DNA of 54,892 nt from a virus. Lineage: Duplodnaviria > Heunggongvirae > Uroviricota > Caudoviricetes. Both the position numbers and the translations under genes were made by a program. Below the pieces are notes generated by a model. It saw only the letters and a program-made list of their open reading frames with translations, ran no database searches and was not told the origin of the DNA. Where the stretch lies: the IMG/VR virus record IMGVR_UViG_2568526312_000015. One strand, given 5' to 3'. Positions 5,294-49,340 of this stretch are shown in pieces (the first letter of the stretch is position 1; each line of letters opens with the position of its first letter).

Positions 5294-5986
5294 TTAATTA
5301 TGTCTCTTAAGGGTTTGCGACTGACTGATTAAGACCTTTCCAAAGACCATGAATCGGTGTTCGTTTTCGCTAGTAATTCCCCATTCACGGTAAATCTGGT
5401 TATCAGAAATCACCAGCAGTTTGTCAGGAATCATTTGAAGTCTTTTAACGTATATTTTGTCATCAAAACCAAAGACATATATACCATCACCATCAAACTG
5501 ATTGATGCTGACATCAACGAAGATGAGATCTCCTGGCTCAATGGTTGGACACATACTGTCCCCACGAACGTTGATAACTTTGATGTGATTGGCTGGTCGT
5601 CCGCCGAACATTGATACAGCATTATCAGTTCTGTATTCGATGGCATGAATCACATCAATGACATCACCGCCCTGGATAAGGCCATTTCCCGCACTGGCAC
5701 TGATATCCAGCATTTCAATACGGAACACATCCTTCACCTGCGCAACATCCTCATTATTACTGTTTTTATATACAGTATTACTTTTGTGGGCAGAGGTAAA
5801 GAGATCAGCAATATCAACACCTAAGCTCTTGGCAATATTACTCAGTGTTTGTTCGGTAAATTGTTTTTGCTTACCCGTTTCTAAGCGCGAGATGTTCGCC
5901 GCATCTACTCCTATCGCTTCAGCGAGATCGGCGATTTTCATGTTCTTCGCTTGGCGAAGTTGTCTGACTCGGTTTCCTATGTTCAT
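5294..5986 (-). CDS. cI: CI-type prophage repressor (HTH domain plus S24 LexA-like autopeptidase domain)
   Basis: 230-aa ORF; N-terminal XRE-type HTH, C-terminal GDSM...KR Ser/Lys dyad region; divergent from a cro-like gene. Confidence 0.85.
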   Translation of the reverse strand: MNIGNRVRQLRQAKNMKIADLAEAIGVDAANISRLETGKQKQFTEQTLSNIAKSLGVDIADLFTSAHKSNTVYKNSNNEDVAQVKDVFRIEMLDISASAGNGLIQGGDVIDVIHAIEYRTDNAVSMFGGRPANHIKVINVRGDSMCPTIEPGDLIFVDVSINQFDGDGIYVFGFDDKIYVKRLQMIPDKLLVISDNQIYREWGITSENEHRFMVFGKVLISQSQTLKRHN

Positions 5987-6083: not shown

Positions 6084-6344
6084 ATGCAATCACCATTACG
6101 AAATGTGCGTAAGGCGCATGGTTTCACTTTGCAGCATGTTGCTGCGGGTGTTCAAGTCAATCCAGCGACGTTGAGTCGTATTGAGAGGCTGGAGCAGATT
6201 CCATCTATCGAGCTTGCAGAACGTTTAGCCAATTTTTTTAAGGGTGAAGTCAGCGAAATGCAGATTCTTTATCCGGCACGTTTTCAATCTAGCCAAAACC
6301 AGAATGGGTTTAAACCACAGGAACAGGAGGTGAACCGTGGGTAA
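6084..6344 (+). CDS. cro: Cro-like HTH regulator
   Basis: 86-aa XRE-type HTH protein divergent from cI; RBS GGAGG upstream. Confidence 0.7.
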   Translation: MQSPLRNVRKAHGFTLQHVAAGVQVNPATLSRIERLEQIPSIELAERLANFFKGEVSEMQILYPARFQSSQNQNGFKPQEQEVNRG

Positions 6345-6888
6345 GCATCACTGGAAAGTAGAAAAACAGCCTGAGTGGTACGTGAAAGCTGTCAGAAAAA
6401 CTATCGCAGCGTTGCCGGGGGGGTACGCTGAAGCTGCTGACTGGCTGGATGTAACAGAGAACGCATTATTTAACCGCCTTCGTGCCGATGGCGATCAGAT
6501 TTTCCCGCTGGGATGGGCAATGATTTTGCAACGTGCTGGTGGAACTCACTTCATTGCTGACGCTGTGGCGCAGTCTGCAAATGGCGTCTTTGTGTCTCTT
6601 CCTGATGTCGAGGATGTGGACAACGCCGATATCAACCAACGCCTGCTGGAGGTCATTGAACAGATCGGCAGTTATTCAAAACAGATTCGTTCAGCAATTG
6701 AAGACGGTGTAGTGGAACCGCATGAGAAGACAGCAATTAACGACGAGCTGTACCTCTCAATTTCGAAGCTGCAGGAGCATGCAGCACTGGTCTACAAAAT
6801 TTTTTGCATTTCAGAAAGTAATGACGCCCGCGAGTGTGCAGCTCCGGGCGCCGTGGCGTGTCGTGACTGTGGAGAAACTAACGCATGA
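6337..6888 (+). CDS. Putative CII-like phage regulatory protein
   Basis: 183-aa ORF immediately after cro; assignment by position and recalled resemblance to the CP76-type CII family; not verified. Confidence 0.4.
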
Positions 6889-7232: not shown

Positions 7233-8174
7233 ATGAGCACTAAATTAACCGGCTATGTATGGGATGGTTGCGCTGCGTCAGGCATGAAGTTATCCAGCGT
7301 GGCAATTATGGCCCGCCTGGCTGATTTCAGTAATGACGAAGGTGTGTGCTGGCCATCAATTGAAACCATTGCCCGCCAGATTGGCGCGGGGATGAGCACC
7401 GTCAGAACGGCTATCGCACGGCTGGAAGCAGAAGGCTGGTTAACGCGTAAGGCGCGTCGCCAGGGTAACCGCAATGCGTCGAATGTTTATCAGCTTAACG
7501 TTGCGAAGCTTCAGGCAGCGGCATTTTCTCAACTGTCAGATTCTGACCCGTCAAAATCTGACGCATCAAAATCTGACCCGTCAAAATTTGATGCGTCGAA
7601 ATCTGGCAAAAAAGCGGGTTTTCACCCGTCAGAATCTGGCGGGGATCCGTCAGTAAAATCAAAACATGATCCGTCAGATAAAAAACCTTCTCGTCCGGAC
7701 GCTTCGCAACCGGACACGCAGACGGATGAACAGGATTTTTTAACTCGCCATCCTGATGCGGTTGTATTCAGCCCTAAAAAGCGCCAGTGGGGGACGCAGG
7801 ATGATTTGACCTGTGCACAGTGGCTCTGGAAAAAAATCATCGCCCTGTACGAGCATGCCGCCGAATGTGACGGCGAGGTGGTTCGTCCCAAAGAACCGAA
7901 CTGGACAGCCTGGGCAAACGAAATTCGCCTGATGTGTGTGCAGGATGGTCGTACTCATAAACAAATCTGCGAGATGTACAGCCGCGTCAGTCGCGATCCG
8001 TTCTGGTGCCGTAACGTGCTCAGCCCGTCGAAGCTGCGGGAAAAATGGGATGAGCTTTCCCTGCGCTTATCGCCGTCCGTCAGCACGTACACCGAAAAAC
8101 GCGAGGACCCGTACTTCAAAGCCAGTTACGACAACGTGGACTACAGCCAGATCCCGGCAGGATTCAGGGGGTGA
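7233..8174 (+). CDS. Replication initiation protein (O-like; N-terminal winged helix; origin iterons inside the gene)
   Basis: 313-aa ORF; repetitive DPSKSD/ASKSD linker encoded by DNA iterons; position after cro/cII. Confidence 0.6.
   Translation: MSTKLTGYVWDGCAASGMKLSSVAIMARLADFSNDEGVCWPSIETIARQIGAGMSTVRTAIARLEAEGWLTRKARRQGNRNASNVYQLNVAKLQAAAFSQLSDSDPSKSDASKSDPSKFDASKSGKKAGFHPSESGGDPSVKSKHDPSDKKPSRPDASQPDTQTDEQDFLTRHPDAVVFSPKKRQWGTQDDLTCAQWLWKKIIALYEHAAECDGEVVRPKEPNWTAWANEIRLMCVQDGRTHKQICEMYSRVSRDPFWCRNVLSPSKLREKWDELSLRLSPSVSTYTEKREDPYFKASYDNVDYSQIPAGFRG
7536..7690. repeat. Origin-like iteron array (five or more copies of about CGTCAAAATCTGA) followed by an A-rich tract
   Basis: Direct repeats seen in the sequence: CCGTCAAAATCTGAC, GCATCAAAATCTGAC, CCGTCAAAATTTGATG, GCGTCGAAATCTGGC, CCGTCAGAATCTGGC. 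Confidence 0.6.
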
Positions 8175-8665
8175 GCATGAGTCTTTTGAATGACGTTCAG
8201 AAATTCATTGAAGCCCATCCGGGCTGTACTTCCGGAGACATTGCGGATGCTTTTGCAGGTTACTCACGGCAGCGCGTTCTGCAGTCTGCAAGCAAGTTAC
8301 GTCAGAGTGGGCGTGTGGCTCACCGTTGTGAAGGGGATACACGCAGACATTTCCCGCGCCTGACTGAGAGAGCGCAGGAGCCGGAACCACAACCAGTTCG
8401 TGAAACCAGACCTGTGCGCAATTTCTATGTCGGCACTAACGATCCCCGGGTGATTTTGTGCCTGACCCGCCAGGCTGAAGAACTGGAGTCCAGGGGCTTA
8501 TACCGTCGTGCTGCAACGGTGTGGATGGCGGCATTCCGTGAAAGCCACTCCCAGCCAGAACGAAACAATTTTCTGGCGCGTTGTGAGCGGTGCTTACGGA
8601 AAAGCAGCAAGCGCGCTGTATCGGGTGAAGAGTGGTATCTGTCAGGGAATTACGTGGGGGCTTAA
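8171..8665 (+). CDS. Hypothetical protein with PerC-like C-terminal region
   Basis: 164-aa ORF; segment AEELESRGLYRRAATVWMAAF resembles the PerC-family signature; low certainty. Confidence 0.4.
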   Translation: MSMSLLNDVQKFIEAHPGCTSGDIADAFAGYSRQRVLQSASKLRQSGRVAHRCEGDTRRHFPRLTERAQEPEPQPVRETRPVRNFYVGTNDPRVILCLTRQAEELESRGLYRRAATVWMAAFRESHSQPERNNFLARCERCLRKSSKRAVSGEEWYLSGNYVGA

Positions 8666-9318
8666 TGAGTAATAAATATTGCCAGGCGCTGGTGGAGCTG
8701 CGGAACAAACCAGCCCATGAACTGAAGGAAGTGGGCGATCAGTGGCGCACGCCGGACAACATTTTCTGGGGAATTAACACCCTGTTTGGCCCGTTTGTTC
8801 TGGATCTGTTCACTGACGGTGATAACGCCAAATGTGCCGCTTATTACACTGCGGAAGACAACGCGCTGGCGCATGACTGGTCAGAACGTCTTGCGGAGCT
8901 TAAAGGTGCTGCCTTTGGTAATCCCCCATACAGCCGCGCCAGTCAGCATGAGGGGCAATACATCACCGGCATGCGTTACATCATGAAGCATGCCAGTGCC
9001 ATGCGTGATAAAGGCGGGCGCTATGTTTTCCTGATCAAAGCTGCCACCAGCGAAGTGTGGTGGCCGGAAGATGCAGATCATATTGCTTTTATTCGCGGGC
9101 GTATTGGTTTTGAACTGCCTGCCTGGTTTATCCCGAAGGATGAGAAGCAGGTGCCGACAGGCGCTTTCTTCGCTGGTGCTATTGCTGTTTTCGACAAGAC
9201 CTGGAAGGGACCGGCAATCAGCTACATCGGGCGCTATGAACTTGAGGCATGTGGTGAGGCCTTTCTGGCGCAGGTTCGCCAGCAGGCAGAAAAACTGGTC
9301 AGGGAGATGGCGGCATGA
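8665..9318 (+). CDS. Phage DNA N6-adenine methyltransferase (Dam-like orphan methylase)
   Basis: NPPY motif (FGNPPYS) and WRTPDNIF N-terminal motif; ATG overlaps the upstream stop (TAATG). Confidence 0.75.
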   Translation: MSNKYCQALVELRNKPAHELKEVGDQWRTPDNIFWGINTLFGPFVLDLFTDGDNAKCAAYYTAEDNALAHDWSERLAELKGAAFGNPPYSRASQHEGQYITGMRYIMKHASAMRDKGGRYVFLIKAATSEVWWPEDADHIAFIRGRIGFELPAWFIPKDEKQVPTGAFFAGAIAVFDKTWKGPAISYIGRYELEACGEAFLAQVRQQAEKLVREMAA

Positions 9319-9641
9319 CGACGTTAACTCAATGCCAGCAGCAGGTGCTGGATATGCTGATTTCTTATCAGAAAGAACGTGGCTTCCCGCCAACCAATCA
9401 GGAGGTGGCAACCATGCTGGGATACCGTTCAGTGAATGCAGCGGTGGAGCATCTTCGCGCACTGGAGAAAAAAGGCGTCATCACGATAAAGCGTGGCGTG
9501 GCCCGGGGGATAACGCTTCATATCGCGGTGAAGGACGACGACAGCGAGGCGGTCGGGATTATCCGCGCACTGCTTGCCGGTGAGGAAAACGCAAGGCTGC
9601 GTGCAACCCACTGGTTACATGAGAGGGACCTGAAAGTATGA
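9315..9641 (+). CDS. LexA N-terminal DNA-binding-domain-like protein (no peptidase domain)
   Basis: 108-aa ORF; first ~70 aa recalled as aligning with the LexA winged-HTH (QQVLDMLISYQKERGFPPTNQEVATMLGYRSVNAAVEHLRALEKKGVI). Confidence 0.55.
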   Translation: MTTLTQCQQQVLDMLISYQKERGFPPTNQEVATMLGYRSVNAAVEHLRALEKKGVITIKRGVARGITLHIAVKDDDSEAVGIIRALLAGEENARLRATHWLHERDLKV

Positions 9642-48786: not shown

Positions 48787-49340
48787 TGATACCTGCATAC
48801 ATTAAATACCTTTATTCTGGCTTGCTTACTGTCGTCATTTCCAGGTATAGTTTTTCCGCTGTCGCAAAATCGGCAGCCGGAATTGGCGTTCCGTATAACT
48901 TATTGGCGACAATTGACGCCCCTTGCGTCTTTTTTTACGTCGTAGCTCAGGCACAACCATTTTCAGGGCTGTGGTGTTTATGCTTACACCATGGTTCTAT
49001 CGAGATAATGGTAGTCCGGGCGGGGCAGCCTTCGGGCTGGCCGGTTTCCAATAAGGCCGGTTACGCCAACCCCGTTCGGGCTGCCACCAGTGAAATTGGC
49101 GTTTCCGGTGGTAGCAATAACCGCTACTTATTGGAGGCTGCCATCATGGCTACAATCCTCACCCCGTCACACCCGCAATATGTCTTTGTGTTTGCCGCAA
49201 TCCGCCGTGCTGACACTCACCCCCGCATCTGTATGCTTCGCACTGTCTCCTGCGATGAGCGTTCCGCGCGCCGTTTGCTAGTCCGAGATTATGTACTCTC
49301 CCTTTCTGCACGGCTGCCTGCCGGGGAGGTGACGCTATGA
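48783..49340 (+). CDS. Hypothetical protein (the N-terminal two-thirds may be non-coding)
   Basis: 185-aa ORF of odd composition; only the C-terminal ~65 aa looks protein-like. Confidence 0.25.

What the first reader, a model, noticed from the sequence alone, without database searches (positions are those of the whole stretch)
9315..9641. LexA DNA-binding-domain-only protein in the prophage early region
A 108-aa ORF resembles the LexA N-terminal winged-HTH but lacks the S24 autopeptidase domain. Such a protein could bind SOS boxes without being cleaved on RecA activation, which would damp or retune the host SOS response or prophage induction.
Basis: inference. Interest (0 to 1): 0.4.

Follow-up and report, generated by a model that had tools for sequence, protein, structure and literature searches.

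The report
Phage LexA DNA-binding-domain-only protein
A small, widespread prophage gene encodes the DNA-reading head of the bacterial SOS repressor LexA without the part that destroys LexA after DNA damage, so it probably acts as a damage-proof copy of that repressor, but nobody appears to have tested this.

Summary
Window 9315-9641 (+) is an intact 108-aa gene whose residues 1-65 match the whole Pfam LexA_DNA_bind domain (E=3e-19). It has no S24 peptidase domain. It is 43% identical to E. coli LexA, and its model superposes on DNA-bound LexA at 0.9 Å. The four LexA residues reported to read CTGT (S39, N41, A42, E45) are all present.

New here: residues 75-103 form a conserved two-helix hairpin with no Pfam family. 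It probably replaces LexA's dimerising C-terminal domain. The gene sits in the delayed-early operon of an SfV/SfII-like prophage at thrW, translationally coupled to Dam and RusA. It is under purifying selection (dN/dS about 0.2) and occurs in 2232 of 5426 complete E. coli genomes, including Stx2 phages.

Best reading (confidence about 0.45): a RecA-insensitive SOS-box binder made after induction or infection. It is probably not expressed in the quiescent lysogen. No phage SOS box is shared by all carriers, so any common target would be the host regulon. I found no experimental study. The closest characterised analogue, GIL01 gp6, is unrelated in sequence and acts as an activator.

Side finding: a conserved SOS box, identical to the umuDC operator, lies inside the prophage cI gene.

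The parts
9315..9641 (+). LexA-DNA-binding-domain-only gene (108 aa). It is the homologue of SfV orf42, mEp460 gp46 and SfII_44. RefSeq names it 'LexA family transcriptional regulator' (WP_000210141). It belongs to PHROG 362.
   Evidence: ORF. Pfam PF01726 E=2.9e-19. PHROG 362 E=2e-58 over the full length. Annotations. Intact in 83/83 loci, dN/dS about 0.2.
9315..9518 (+). Winged helix-turn-helix (aa 1-68): helices 6-22, 28-35 and 40-52, and wing strands 56-58 and 66-68.
   Evidence: AlphaFold2 model, pLDDT about 89 in this part. Foldseek to the LexA-DNA complex 3JSO gives rmsd 0.9 Å over 68 aa at 50% identity.
9429..9470 (+). Recognition helix region, aa 39-52 (SVNAAVEHLRALEK). S39 is at 9429-9431, N41 at 9435-9437, A42 at 9438-9440 and E45 at 9447-9449; these equal the LexA base-contact residues. 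LexA E44 is replaced by V44, and P40 by V40.
   Evidence: Alignments. Contact residues from PMC11442139. Family conservation.
9519..9536 (+). Flexible linker (aa 69-74), variable in length and sequence across the family.
   Evidence: pLDDT below 50 for residues 71-75. Indels fall here.
9537..9623 (+). C-terminal two-helix hairpin (aa 75-88 and 93-103, motif ..IRALL..-turn-A..A..WL..). It is conserved down to 38% identity and has no Pfam family. I infer that it is the dimerisation module.
   Evidence: Model pLDDT about 90. Conservation, with A97 and L101 invariant. No significant Pfam hit for the tail alone.
8665..9318 (+). Phage Dam-type N6-adenine methyltransferase. Its stop overlaps the LexA-like start.
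   Evidence: Pfam PF05869 E=5e-45. PADLOC MTase_II. RefSeq start position.
9638..10027 (+). RusA Holliday-junction resolvase. Its start overlaps the LexA-like stop. This adjacency is kept in homologues of 43-47% identity.
   Evidence: Pfam PF05866. Synteny.
5294..5986 (-). Prophage cI-type repressor (HTH_3 plus Peptidase_S24). It controls the early-right operon that contains the LexA-like gene.
   Evidence: Pfam. Annotated as cI in SfII at 99.5% identity.
5758..5777 (.). The only strong LexA operator in the window, TACTGTTTTTATATACAGTA. It lies inside cI and is the only candidate cis-target on this prophage for host LexA and for the LexA-like protein.
   Evidence: Its reverse complement is 20/20 identical to the MG1655 umuDC operator. 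It is conserved across diverged cI alleles.

Best explanation
The gene encodes a RecA-proof surrogate of LexA. It keeps LexA's winged-HTH DNA-reading head with the CTGT-contacting residues intact. A short flexible linker joins that head to a small helical hairpin, which replaces LexA's dimerising, self-cleaving S24 domain.

Proposed mechanism:
1. The gene is transcribed from pR as a delayed-early gene, translationally coupled to Dam and RusA. The protein therefore appears only after cI is inactivated or during infection (inferred).
2. Two chains pair through the hairpins, giving a bivalent binder (inferred).
3. The dimer occupies CTGT-N8-ACAG SOS boxes (inferred from conserved contact residues and fold).
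4. Because it has no cleavage site and no protease, RecA* cannot remove it (shown by sequence).

The net effect would be LexA-type repression re-imposed on host SOS genes while host LexA is being destroyed. Phage-borne SOS-box genes would be repressed too; here that means the box inside cI. The cell would be a phenocopy of lexA(Ind-). The benefit to the phage is not established. Candidates are limiting SOS toxins and mutagenesis, silencing LexA-controlled antirepressors of rival prophages, and lowering RecA during establishment of lysogeny.
For: Domain and fold: full-length PF01726 match; 43% identity to E. coli LexA; model superposes on DNA-bound LexA at 0.9 Å.

Reading head: S39, N41, A42 and E45 are all present. 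S39, N41 and wing residues R64 and G65 are invariant in 30 diverse members.

Uncleavable: no S24 domain, below the lexA equivalog cut-off, and the 'LAGE' resemblance to LexA's Ala84-Gly85 site is not conserved in the family.

Dimeriser logic: the hairpin is conserved and confidently modelled. In LexA-based two-hybrid systems the LexA DNA-binding domain represses sulA only when fused to an interacting partner (PMC7595419).

Non-cleavable LexA variants are known to disable the SOS response (PMC3159453).

Expression: co-directional genes with overlapping stops and starts from the replication gene through RusA. No sigma-70-like promoter is predicted between pR and 10028.

In genomes and loci that carry the gene, the only enriched ACTGT/ACAGT palindrome spacing is the canonical N8 (9 observed against 0.32 expected). 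SOS boxes recur at three sites around the gene in 45 of 80 related loci.

Purifying selection and wide distribution.
Against: Nothing here shows DNA binding, dimerisation or any effect on SOS genes.

LexA E44 is never acidic in this family, and R28 and R7 of LexA are not conserved. I could not check the role of these residues in DNA binding.

Several subclades replace E45 with L, I, T or G, or A42 with S, T or G. The family as a whole is therefore not locked to LexA's specificity.

35 of 80 related loci, and the early regions of mEp390 and L011-L013, carry no strong SOS box. No co-evolving phage operator supports the idea.

The cI-internal box also occurs in phages that lack the gene.

The only characterised phage LexA-domain-only protein, GIL01 gp6, binds a non-SOS palindrome and activates transcription.

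The whole family found lies in Enterobacterales, which share one LexA motif. I therefore could not test whether the reading head tracks host LexA specificity.
Confidence: 0.45

Rival explanations
1. It is a phage-specific transcription factor of the GIL01 gp6 type. On this reading a LexA-derived winged HTH has drifted to its own operator and regulates a phage promoter, for example late genes or the neighbouring KilA-N, DUF968 and Q genes. It might even act as an activator rather than bind host SOS boxes.
For: gp6 is a precedent: a truncated LexA homologue that binds GaCACA..TGTGaC at -43.5 and activates the late promoter P3. In this family position 44 is never Glu, and positions 42 and 45 vary among subclades. 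The gene always sits in the early-right arm, upstream of the Q antiterminator except in the truncated L010 locus.
Against: In this protein all four reported base-contact residues equal those of LexA. No palindrome with a non-SOS spacing is enriched in genomes and loci that carry the gene. No inverted repeat of note lies in the Q-to-lysis interval. There is no sequence similarity to gp6.
Confidence: 0.25
2. It is an accessory DNA-binding protein for phage DNA metabolism rather than a transcription factor. It could be a partner or targeting factor for the adjacent RusA resolvase or the replication module, comparable in position to lambda NinH next to NinG/Rap. That comparison is from my own knowledge and was not tested here.
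For: The stop-start overlap with RusA and the order replication gene-(Dam)-this gene-RusA are kept at 43-47% identity. There is a weak PHROG hit to O-like replication initiators (E=0.01).
Against: One Klebsiella homologue has no RusA next to it. Conservation is strongest in the sequence-reading helix and the wing, which is typical of a site-specific regulator. Synteny in lambdoid nin regions often reflects modular inheritance rather than function.
Confidence: 0.1
3. It is a functionless remnant of a truncated LexA-like or cI-like repressor gene that is carried along in the module.
For: It looks like the N-terminal half of a two-domain repressor. A few database entries are truncated or fused to neighbouring genes.
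Against: 83/83 loci are intact, dN/dS is about 0.2, and the wHTH is almost invariant at protein level. A specific C-terminal hairpin is conserved to 38% identity. The gene is present in 2232 of 5426 complete E. coli genomes.
Confidence: 0.03

Closest known systems
E. coli LexA (SOS repressor; PDB 1LEA, 1JHH, 3JSO)
   Same: The same winged-HTH fold: 43% identity over 90 aa, rmsd 0.9 Å, and the same S39/N41/A42/E45 reading residues. The wing residues R64 and G65 are also shared with LexA.
   Different: It has no S24 peptidase/dimerisation domain, no catalytic Ser/Lys and no conserved Ala-Gly site. Residues 75-103 form an unrelated helical hairpin instead. E44 is replaced by V, R28 by N and R7 by C. 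It scores below the lexA equivalog cut-off. It is phage-encoded and lies in an early lytic operon.
Non-cleavable LexA mutants (lexA Ind-) and the LexA-DBD fusions of bacterial two-hybrid systems
   Same: On the best explanation it would work like these: a LexA DNA-binding head held as a dimer by something other than a cleavable S24 domain, so it represses SOS boxes regardless of RecA* (PMC7595419; PMC3159453).
   Different: Those are laboratory constructs. This is a natural, conserved phage gene whose dimerisation and operator binding are untested.
Bacillus phage GIL01 gp6 (truncated LexA homologue, activator of late promoter P3)
   Same: It is a phage-encoded protein consisting essentially of a LexA DNA-binding domain and is expressed from the early operon (PMC6182141).
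   Different: There is no detectable pairwise similarity, so this is an independent derivation from proteobacterial LexA. gp6 is 66 aa with no helical tail. gp6 recognises a non-SOS palindrome and activates transcription. Here the host-type reading residues are retained.
GIL01 gp7 (small phage protein that binds host LexA and blocks its RecA-mediated cleavage)
   Same: The predicted outcome is the same: LexA-type repression that persists despite RecA* (PMC4551915 title and abstract, listed; discussion).
   Different: gp7 acts through host LexA and is not a DNA-binding LexA homologue. The protein here would replace LexA at operators.
LexA N-terminal cleavage fragment (residues 1-84)
   Same: It consists of the same domain content as the first two thirds of this protein.
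   Different: [quoted passage not shown] The phage protein carries an extra conserved hairpin and a different C-terminus, so it is not simply a mimic of the inactive fragment.

Membership tests
LexA repressor proper (NCBIfam TIGR00498 equivalog) | N-terminal LexA-type winged HTH | tested here: met
   PF01726 matched 1-65/65, E=2.9e-19. Superposes on 3JSO at 0.9 Å.
LexA repressor proper (NCBIfam TIGR00498 equivalog) | C-terminal S24 peptidase domain with the Ser119/Lys156 dyad, which is also the dimer interface | tested here: not met
   There is no Peptidase_S24 hit and the protein ends at residue 108. Only model positions 1-91 of 203 align.
LexA repressor proper (NCBIfam TIGR00498 equivalog) | Conserved Ala84-Gly85 cleavage-site region | tested here: not met
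   An 'LLAGE' string aligns with LexA 'VAAGE' in the E. coli clade. It lies inside a predicted helix and is not conserved in family members of 38-60% identity.
LexA repressor proper (NCBIfam TIGR00498 equivalog) | Score at or above the curated equivalog cut-off | tested here: not met
   69.3 bits against a cut-off of 110.95.
LexA repressor proper (NCBIfam TIGR00498 equivalog) | Binds CTGT-N8-ACAG SOS boxes | not testable with these tools
   The contact residues S39/N41/A42/E45 are conserved, but this does not demonstrate binding.
Pfam PF01726 LexA_DNA_bind / PHROG 362 ('transcriptional repressor') | Full-length match to the family profile | tested here: met
   PF01726 scores 69 bits against 23.7. 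PHROG 362 matches 1-108 against 1-106/106, E=2e-58.
GIL01 gp6-type phage truncated LexA homologue | Phage-encoded protein that is essentially a LexA DNA-binding domain without the S24 domain | tested here: met
GIL01 gp6-type phage truncated LexA homologue | Sequence relatedness to gp6 | tested here: not met
   BLASTP of the 108-aa protein against GIL01 ORF6 (66 aa) gives no alignment with E<=100.
GIL01 gp6-type phage truncated LexA homologue | Own palindromic operator overlapping the -35 of a late promoter; activates transcription | tested here: inconclusive
   No enriched non-SOS palindrome was found, and there is no notable inverted repeat between Q and the lysis genes. Absence in a pattern scan does not exclude such a site, and activation is not testable here.
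Lambda cI / S24 phage repressors | HTH_3-type DNA-binding domain plus S24 autopeptidase | tested here: not met
   The prophage's real cI is the separate gene at 5294-5986 (HTH_3 plus Peptidase_S24). The 108-aa protein has neither domain.

The most novel reading that the evidence does not exclude
The protein is a viral, RecA-proof stand-in for LexA. It closes the host SOS regulon again during lytic development or early infection, together with LexA-controlled genes of this and rival prophages, including the operator buried inside cI. Such an SOS shut-off factor would be carried by about 40% of complete E. coli genomes, including Stx2a and Stx2c phages. It would influence antibiotic-triggered SOS mutagenesis, persister formation, cross-induction of prophages and toxin release.
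Probability: 0.35. Interest if true: 0.7.

Novelty: new member of a known kind. Interest (0 to 1): 0.42.

Why it matters
If the protein binds SOS boxes, many enterobacterial prophages carry a LexA replacement that RecA cannot remove. These include Shiga-toxin phages and the Shigella serotype-converting phages SfII, SfIV and SfV. That would add a phage-side control layer to the SOS response. The SOS response drives prophage induction, Stx release, error-prone repair and persistence after antibiotics.

The idea is directly testable with simple reporter and gel-shift assays. If the protein instead reads its own operator, it would be a second, independent case of a phage recruiting the LexA DNA-binding domain, after GIL01 gp6, this time with an added dimerisation hairpin. 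In either case the current database names ('LexA repressor', 'SOS-response repressor and protease LexA') are misleading, because the protease half is absent.

Tried and rejected
1. Cleavage-site mimic. The tail 'LLAGE' aligns with LexA 'VAAGE' (Ala84-Gly85). This suggested a pseudo-substrate for LexA or RecA*. I rejected it because the motif is not conserved in homologues of 38-60% identity and lies in a confidently predicted helix.

2. Dedicated phage operator. I looked for SOS boxes co-inherited with the gene. Boxes recur at three places in relatives, but 35 of 80 loci have none. The cI box also occurs in phages that lack the gene. I found no specific partner site.

3. Alternative half-site spacings or orientations of ACTGT/ACAGT. 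None is enriched. The N14 hit is a conserved tail-gene coding sequence.

4. An own promoter allowing expression in the lysogen. The SfV record annotates a 'dam promoter', but it is weak and its -35 is altered in the window. The consensus scan finds nothing between pR and 10028.

5. Orthology with GIL01 gp6. There is no alignment.

6. Known family for the tail, or a defence-system link. There is only a sub-threshold NIL hit for the tail and a sub-threshold CARF hit in PADLOC.

7. Whether the reading helix tracks host LexA specificity across taxa. This was not possible, because every tail-bearing homologue found is from Enterobacterales.

8. Literature. Eight full-text searches found no experimental work on this gene, on SfV orf42, or on the cI-internal SOS box. 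The primary LexA-DNA structure paper and the Butala 2009 review were not held. The contact residues are therefore taken from a secondary source.

Full report
**The observation**

Window 9315-9641 (+) is an ATG-to-TGA ORF of 108 aa. Its start overlaps the stop of the upstream gene (ATGA, 9315-9318). Its stop overlaps the start of the downstream gene (ATGA, 9638-9641). Residues 1-65 match the entire Pfam LexA_DNA_bind model (E=2.9e-19). PHROG 362 ('transcriptional repressor') matches end to end (E=2e-58). The NCBIfam lexA equivalog aligns only its first 91 of 203 positions and scores 69 bits against a cut-off of 111. The best solved relatives are the E. coli LexA N-terminal domain and full-length LexA (E about 1e-15). 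BLASTP against E. coli LexA gives 43% identity over 90 aa (E=1e-21). There is no S24 peptidase domain.

**Setting**

The window is an SfV/SfII-like prophage integrated beside proA and a tRNA-Thr gene. The early-right arm contains, in order:
- a cI-type repressor on the minus strand (5294-5986; HTH_3 plus Peptidase_S24);
- cro (6084-6344);
- a CII/CP76-like gene (6337-6888);
- an HTH_36 replication protein (7233-8174);
- a PerC-like protein (8171-8665);
- Dam methylase (8665-9318);
- the LexA-like gene (9315-9641);
- RusA (9638-10027);
- a KilA-N protein (10047-10856);
- a DUF968/HNH protein (10858-11853);
- a Q antiterminator (11867-12619).

From the replication gene through RusA, the stops and starts overlap. 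A consensus scan finds no sigma-70-like promoter on the + strand between the cI/cro control region and 10028, and no convincing terminator in that stretch. The 'dam promoter' annotated in the SfV record is weak, and its -35 is altered in the window. I therefore infer that the gene is a pR-driven delayed-early gene. It would be silent while cI is active and would be made after induction or on infection. This is inference, not measurement.

**Is it a real, selected gene?**

The same gene (95-100% nucleotide identity in nearly all) is in 50 phage records: SfV orf42, SfII, SfIV, mEp460, cdtI, Ayreon, fifteen Stx2c phages, and the Stx2a phages Stx2a_1447 and Stx2a_WGPS2. It is also in 2232 of 5426 complete E. 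coli genomes. Across 83 loci every copy is intact. There are 53 nucleotide alleles, and mean dN/dS is about 0.20. Only three positions in residues 1-68 vary at the protein level.

A profile search extends the family through Enterobacterales prophages: Salmonella, Citrobacter, Cronobacter, Klebsiella (clusters of about 1000 members), Enterobacter, Kosakonia and Hafnia. Members are always about 105-135 aa and always carry PF01726 only. At 43-47% identity the neighbourhood is still replication gene-(methylases)-this gene-RusA-(Rha/ANT or KilA-N)-DUF968-Q. One Klebsiella phage lacks RusA at that position.

**Anatomy**

An AlphaFold2 model built on 16 family members has mean pLDDT 84. It shows:
- a winged HTH (helices 6-22, 28-35 and 40-52; wing strands 56-58 and 66-68);
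- a floppy linker (residues 71-75, pLDDT below 50);
- a two-helix hairpin (75-88 and 93-103, pLDDT about 90).

The wHTH superposes on the DNA-bound E. coli LexA domain (3JSO) at 0.9 Å over 68 residues. A review that cites the crystal structure reports that S39, N41, A42 and E45 mediate recognition of CTGT (PMC11442139). All four are present here, in SVNAAVEH against LexA's SPNAAEEH.

In 30 diverse members, S39, N41, R64 and G65 are invariant. A42 is usually A, sometimes S, T or G. E45 is E or D in most members, but L, I, T or G in some subclades, including the large Klebsiella group. Position 44 is Glu in LexA and is never acidic in this family. The family as a whole is not rigidly held to LexA's specificity.

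The hairpin (motif IRALL-turn-A..A..WL; A97 and L101 invariant) is conserved to 38% identity and matches no Pfam family. The resemblance of 'LLAGE' to LexA's cleavage site is confined to the E. coli clade and lies in a predicted helix. I rejected a cleavage-site-mimic role.

**Mechanism**

LexA binds its palindromic operator as a dimer held by the S24 domain. RecA*-stimulated cleavage between Ala84 and Gly85 lowers DNA affinity and exposes the fragments to ClpXP and Lon (PMC3159453). In LexA-based two-hybrid systems the DNA-binding domain represses sulA only when fused to a dimerising partner (PMC7595419). Over-expressed non-cleavable LexA disables the SOS response (PMC3159453).

The phage protein has the layout of those constructs: the LexA head, a short flexible linker and a small conserved helical module. 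A two-helix hairpin on its own would most plausibly pair into a four-helix bundle; that step is inference. The best-supported reading is a RecA-insensitive SOS-box binder. It would appear once pR fires and would re-impose LexA-type repression while host LexA is being destroyed.

Shown here:
- domain identity and fold;
- conserved reading residues;
- absence of the protease and of a conserved cleavage site;
- a conserved tail;
- operon position;
- purifying selection.

Inferred:
- dimerisation;
- operator specificity;
- timing of expression;
- any physiological effect.

I put this reading at about 0.45.

**Search for targets**

I built a weight matrix from 19 E. coli SOS operators recalled from memory. 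I checked one of them (umuDC) against MG1655. The window contains exactly one strong box, at 5758-5777, scoring 27 bits; the known sites score 13-27.

In seven genomes or loci that carry the gene or a homologue, ACTGT-Nx-ACAGT is enriched only at the canonical spacing N8 (9 observed against 0.32 expected). No other spacing or orientation stands out.

In 80 IMG/VR loci carrying the gene (±8 kb, 1.13 Mb in total) there are 58 boxes of at least 18 bits. Most fall at three recurrent positions:
- inside cI (27 loci);
- within the first codons of a late DNA methyltransferase downstream of Q, where checked in SfV and mEp460 (23 loci);
- downstream of RusA; in L040 this is the RusA/KilA-N intergenic region (5 loci).

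However, 35 of the 80 loci have none. The early regions of mEp390 and L011-L013 also have none. There is therefore no phage operator that travels with the gene. If it reads SOS boxes, the common target must be the host regulon, with phage boxes as optional extras. This neither proves nor excludes the rival that it reads a site of its own.

**Comparison with what is known**

The protein is not a LexA. Three defining features were tested and failed: the S24 domain, the cleavage site and the equivalog score.

The only characterised phage protein of this kind that I found is gp6 of Bacillus phage GIL01. gp6 is a 66-aa truncated LexA homologue that binds its own palindrome at -43.5 and activates the late promoter (PMC6182141). 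The protein here shows no pairwise similarity to gp6. It is closer to proteobacterial LexA, carries an extra hairpin and keeps host-type reading residues. It is therefore an independent instance of the same evolutionary move. GIL01 gp7 reaches a similar end state (LexA repression resistant to RecA*) by binding host LexA.

Eight literature searches found no experimental work on this gene. It appears only in annotation tables, for example as a pfam01726 'pham' present in 15 Stx phages (PMC8136144). Database names such as 'SOS-response repressor and protease LexA' are wrong about the protease.

**Rivals**

1. A gp6-like phage-specific regulator with shifted specificity, about 0.25. It is supported by the gp6 precedent and by variation at positions 42, 44 and 45. 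The intact reading residues here and the lack of any enriched alternative palindrome weigh against it.
2. An accessory DNA-binding factor for RusA, replication or recombination, about 0.1. It is supported only by conserved adjacency.
3. A functionless remnant, about 0.03. The selection data contradict it.

**Verdict**

The thing is an already-annotated but uncharacterised family, so it is a new member of a known kind (phage LexA-domain-only regulators). It has a concrete, cheaply testable hypothesis and a wide distribution that includes Stx phages. Interest is moderate, at 0.42.

**Side finding**

The single SOS box of the window lies inside the cI coding sequence, in the linker between the HTH and S24 domains. 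On the cI sense strand it reads TACTGTATATAAAAACAGTA, identical over 20 of 20 bases to the MG1655 umuDC operator.

It is retained with scores of 23-27 bits in cI alleles down to about 70% nucleotide identity: mEp460, SfII, ST64B, Klebsiella phage 1 LV-2017, Flotzy and a metagenomic contig. The surrounding linker residues diverge, yet the third codon positions across the box are unchanged in the four alleles I examined codon by codon. It occurs in phages with and without the LexA-like gene, so it is primarily a host-LexA site.

Upstream on the sense strand, TTTACC/TTTACA/TTTATT lies exactly 17 nt before TACTGT. This is the same geometry as TTGATC-17 nt-TACTGT at umuD. That hints at an SOS-controlled internal promoter, but a roadblock or antisense role is equally open. 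I found no paper on it.

Noticed in passing
window 5758-5777 (inside cI, 5294-5986 minus); also L002:31970, L004:29167, L005:668, L006:655, L007:646, L010:836: A high-affinity SOS box lies in the linker-coding part of the prophage cI gene. On the sense strand it is 20/20 identical to the E. coli umuDC operator. It is conserved across cI alleles down to about 70% nucleotide identity while the flanking residues diverge. It is also present in phages that lack the LexA-like gene. On the sense strand, TTTACC-17 nt-TACTGT mirrors the umuD promoter geometry. Its function is unknown (internal SOS promoter, roadblock or antisense), and I found no literature on it.
   Followed up: partly
L003:34170 (SfV), L002:41021 (mEp460), L040:8765-8784, L002:23255 and 23283; window 13882-13901: Relatives carry further strong SOS boxes at fixed places. 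These are the first codons of the late DNA methyltransferase downstream of Q, the RusA/KilA-N intergenic region (apparently an SOS-controlled KilA-N gene), and upstream of a phage dinI homologue. The window has only a degenerate copy, CACTGTAAAAATAAATTGTG, and its methyltransferase gene is truncated (14008-14322).
   Followed up: partly
proteins P0129, P0154, P0159, P0161, P0166: Proteins of about 140-165 aa consist of two tandem LexA DNA-binding domains and no S24 domain. They look like single-chain pseudo-dimers, a different natural route to a bivalent, uncleavable LexA head. P0161 looks like an internal duplication and may be an assembly artefact.
   Followed up: partly
window 7233-10027: The genes for the replication protein, PerC-like protein, Dam, LexA-like protein and RusA are linked by overlapping stop and start codons (GTGA, TAATG and ATGA types). 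This suggests translational coupling of the whole block.
   Followed up: partly
window about 7530-7610 (within the replication gene 7233-8174): The replication protein contains a repeated peptide, SDSDPSKSDASKSDPSKFDASKS. The other reading frames repeat too (LTRQNLTHQNLTRQNL). This implies short tandem DNA repeats inside the gene, possibly origin iterons as in lambdoid O genes. I saw this only in the translations.
   Followed up: no
window 16756-17969, with Rfam ALIL at 17572-17688 (minus): An IS3-family insertion sequence (two overlapping minus-strand ORFs with an ALIL frameshift pseudoknot) sits between the lysis genes and the terminase genes. It is absent at this place in the otherwise matching FRIK944 prophage.
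   Followed up: no
window 48858-48935 and 49004-49091 (+): Rfam finds an isrK Hfq-binding sRNA and a C4 antisense RNA beyond the tail genes. These may belong to an antirepressor-control or immunity module (from my own knowledge). This may indicate a second mobile-element segment in the window.
   Followed up: no
database proteins P0121, P0253, P0262, P0272, P0303 (Dam plus LexA_DNA_bind) and P0252 (RusA plus LexA_DNA_bind): Some public gene calls fuse the LexA-like ORF to its neighbours. Given the 4-bp overlaps, these are most simply frameshifts or annotation artefacts, not true fusions.
   Followed up: no
L002 22993-23241 (mEp460), L009 1-234 (Klebsiella phage ST846-OXA48phi9.1): Some phages that carry the LexA-like gene or a homologue also encode a DinI homologue (a RecA-filament modulator). 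In mEp460 it sits behind two SOS boxes. These genomes therefore hold more than one candidate SOS-modulating gene.
   Followed up: no
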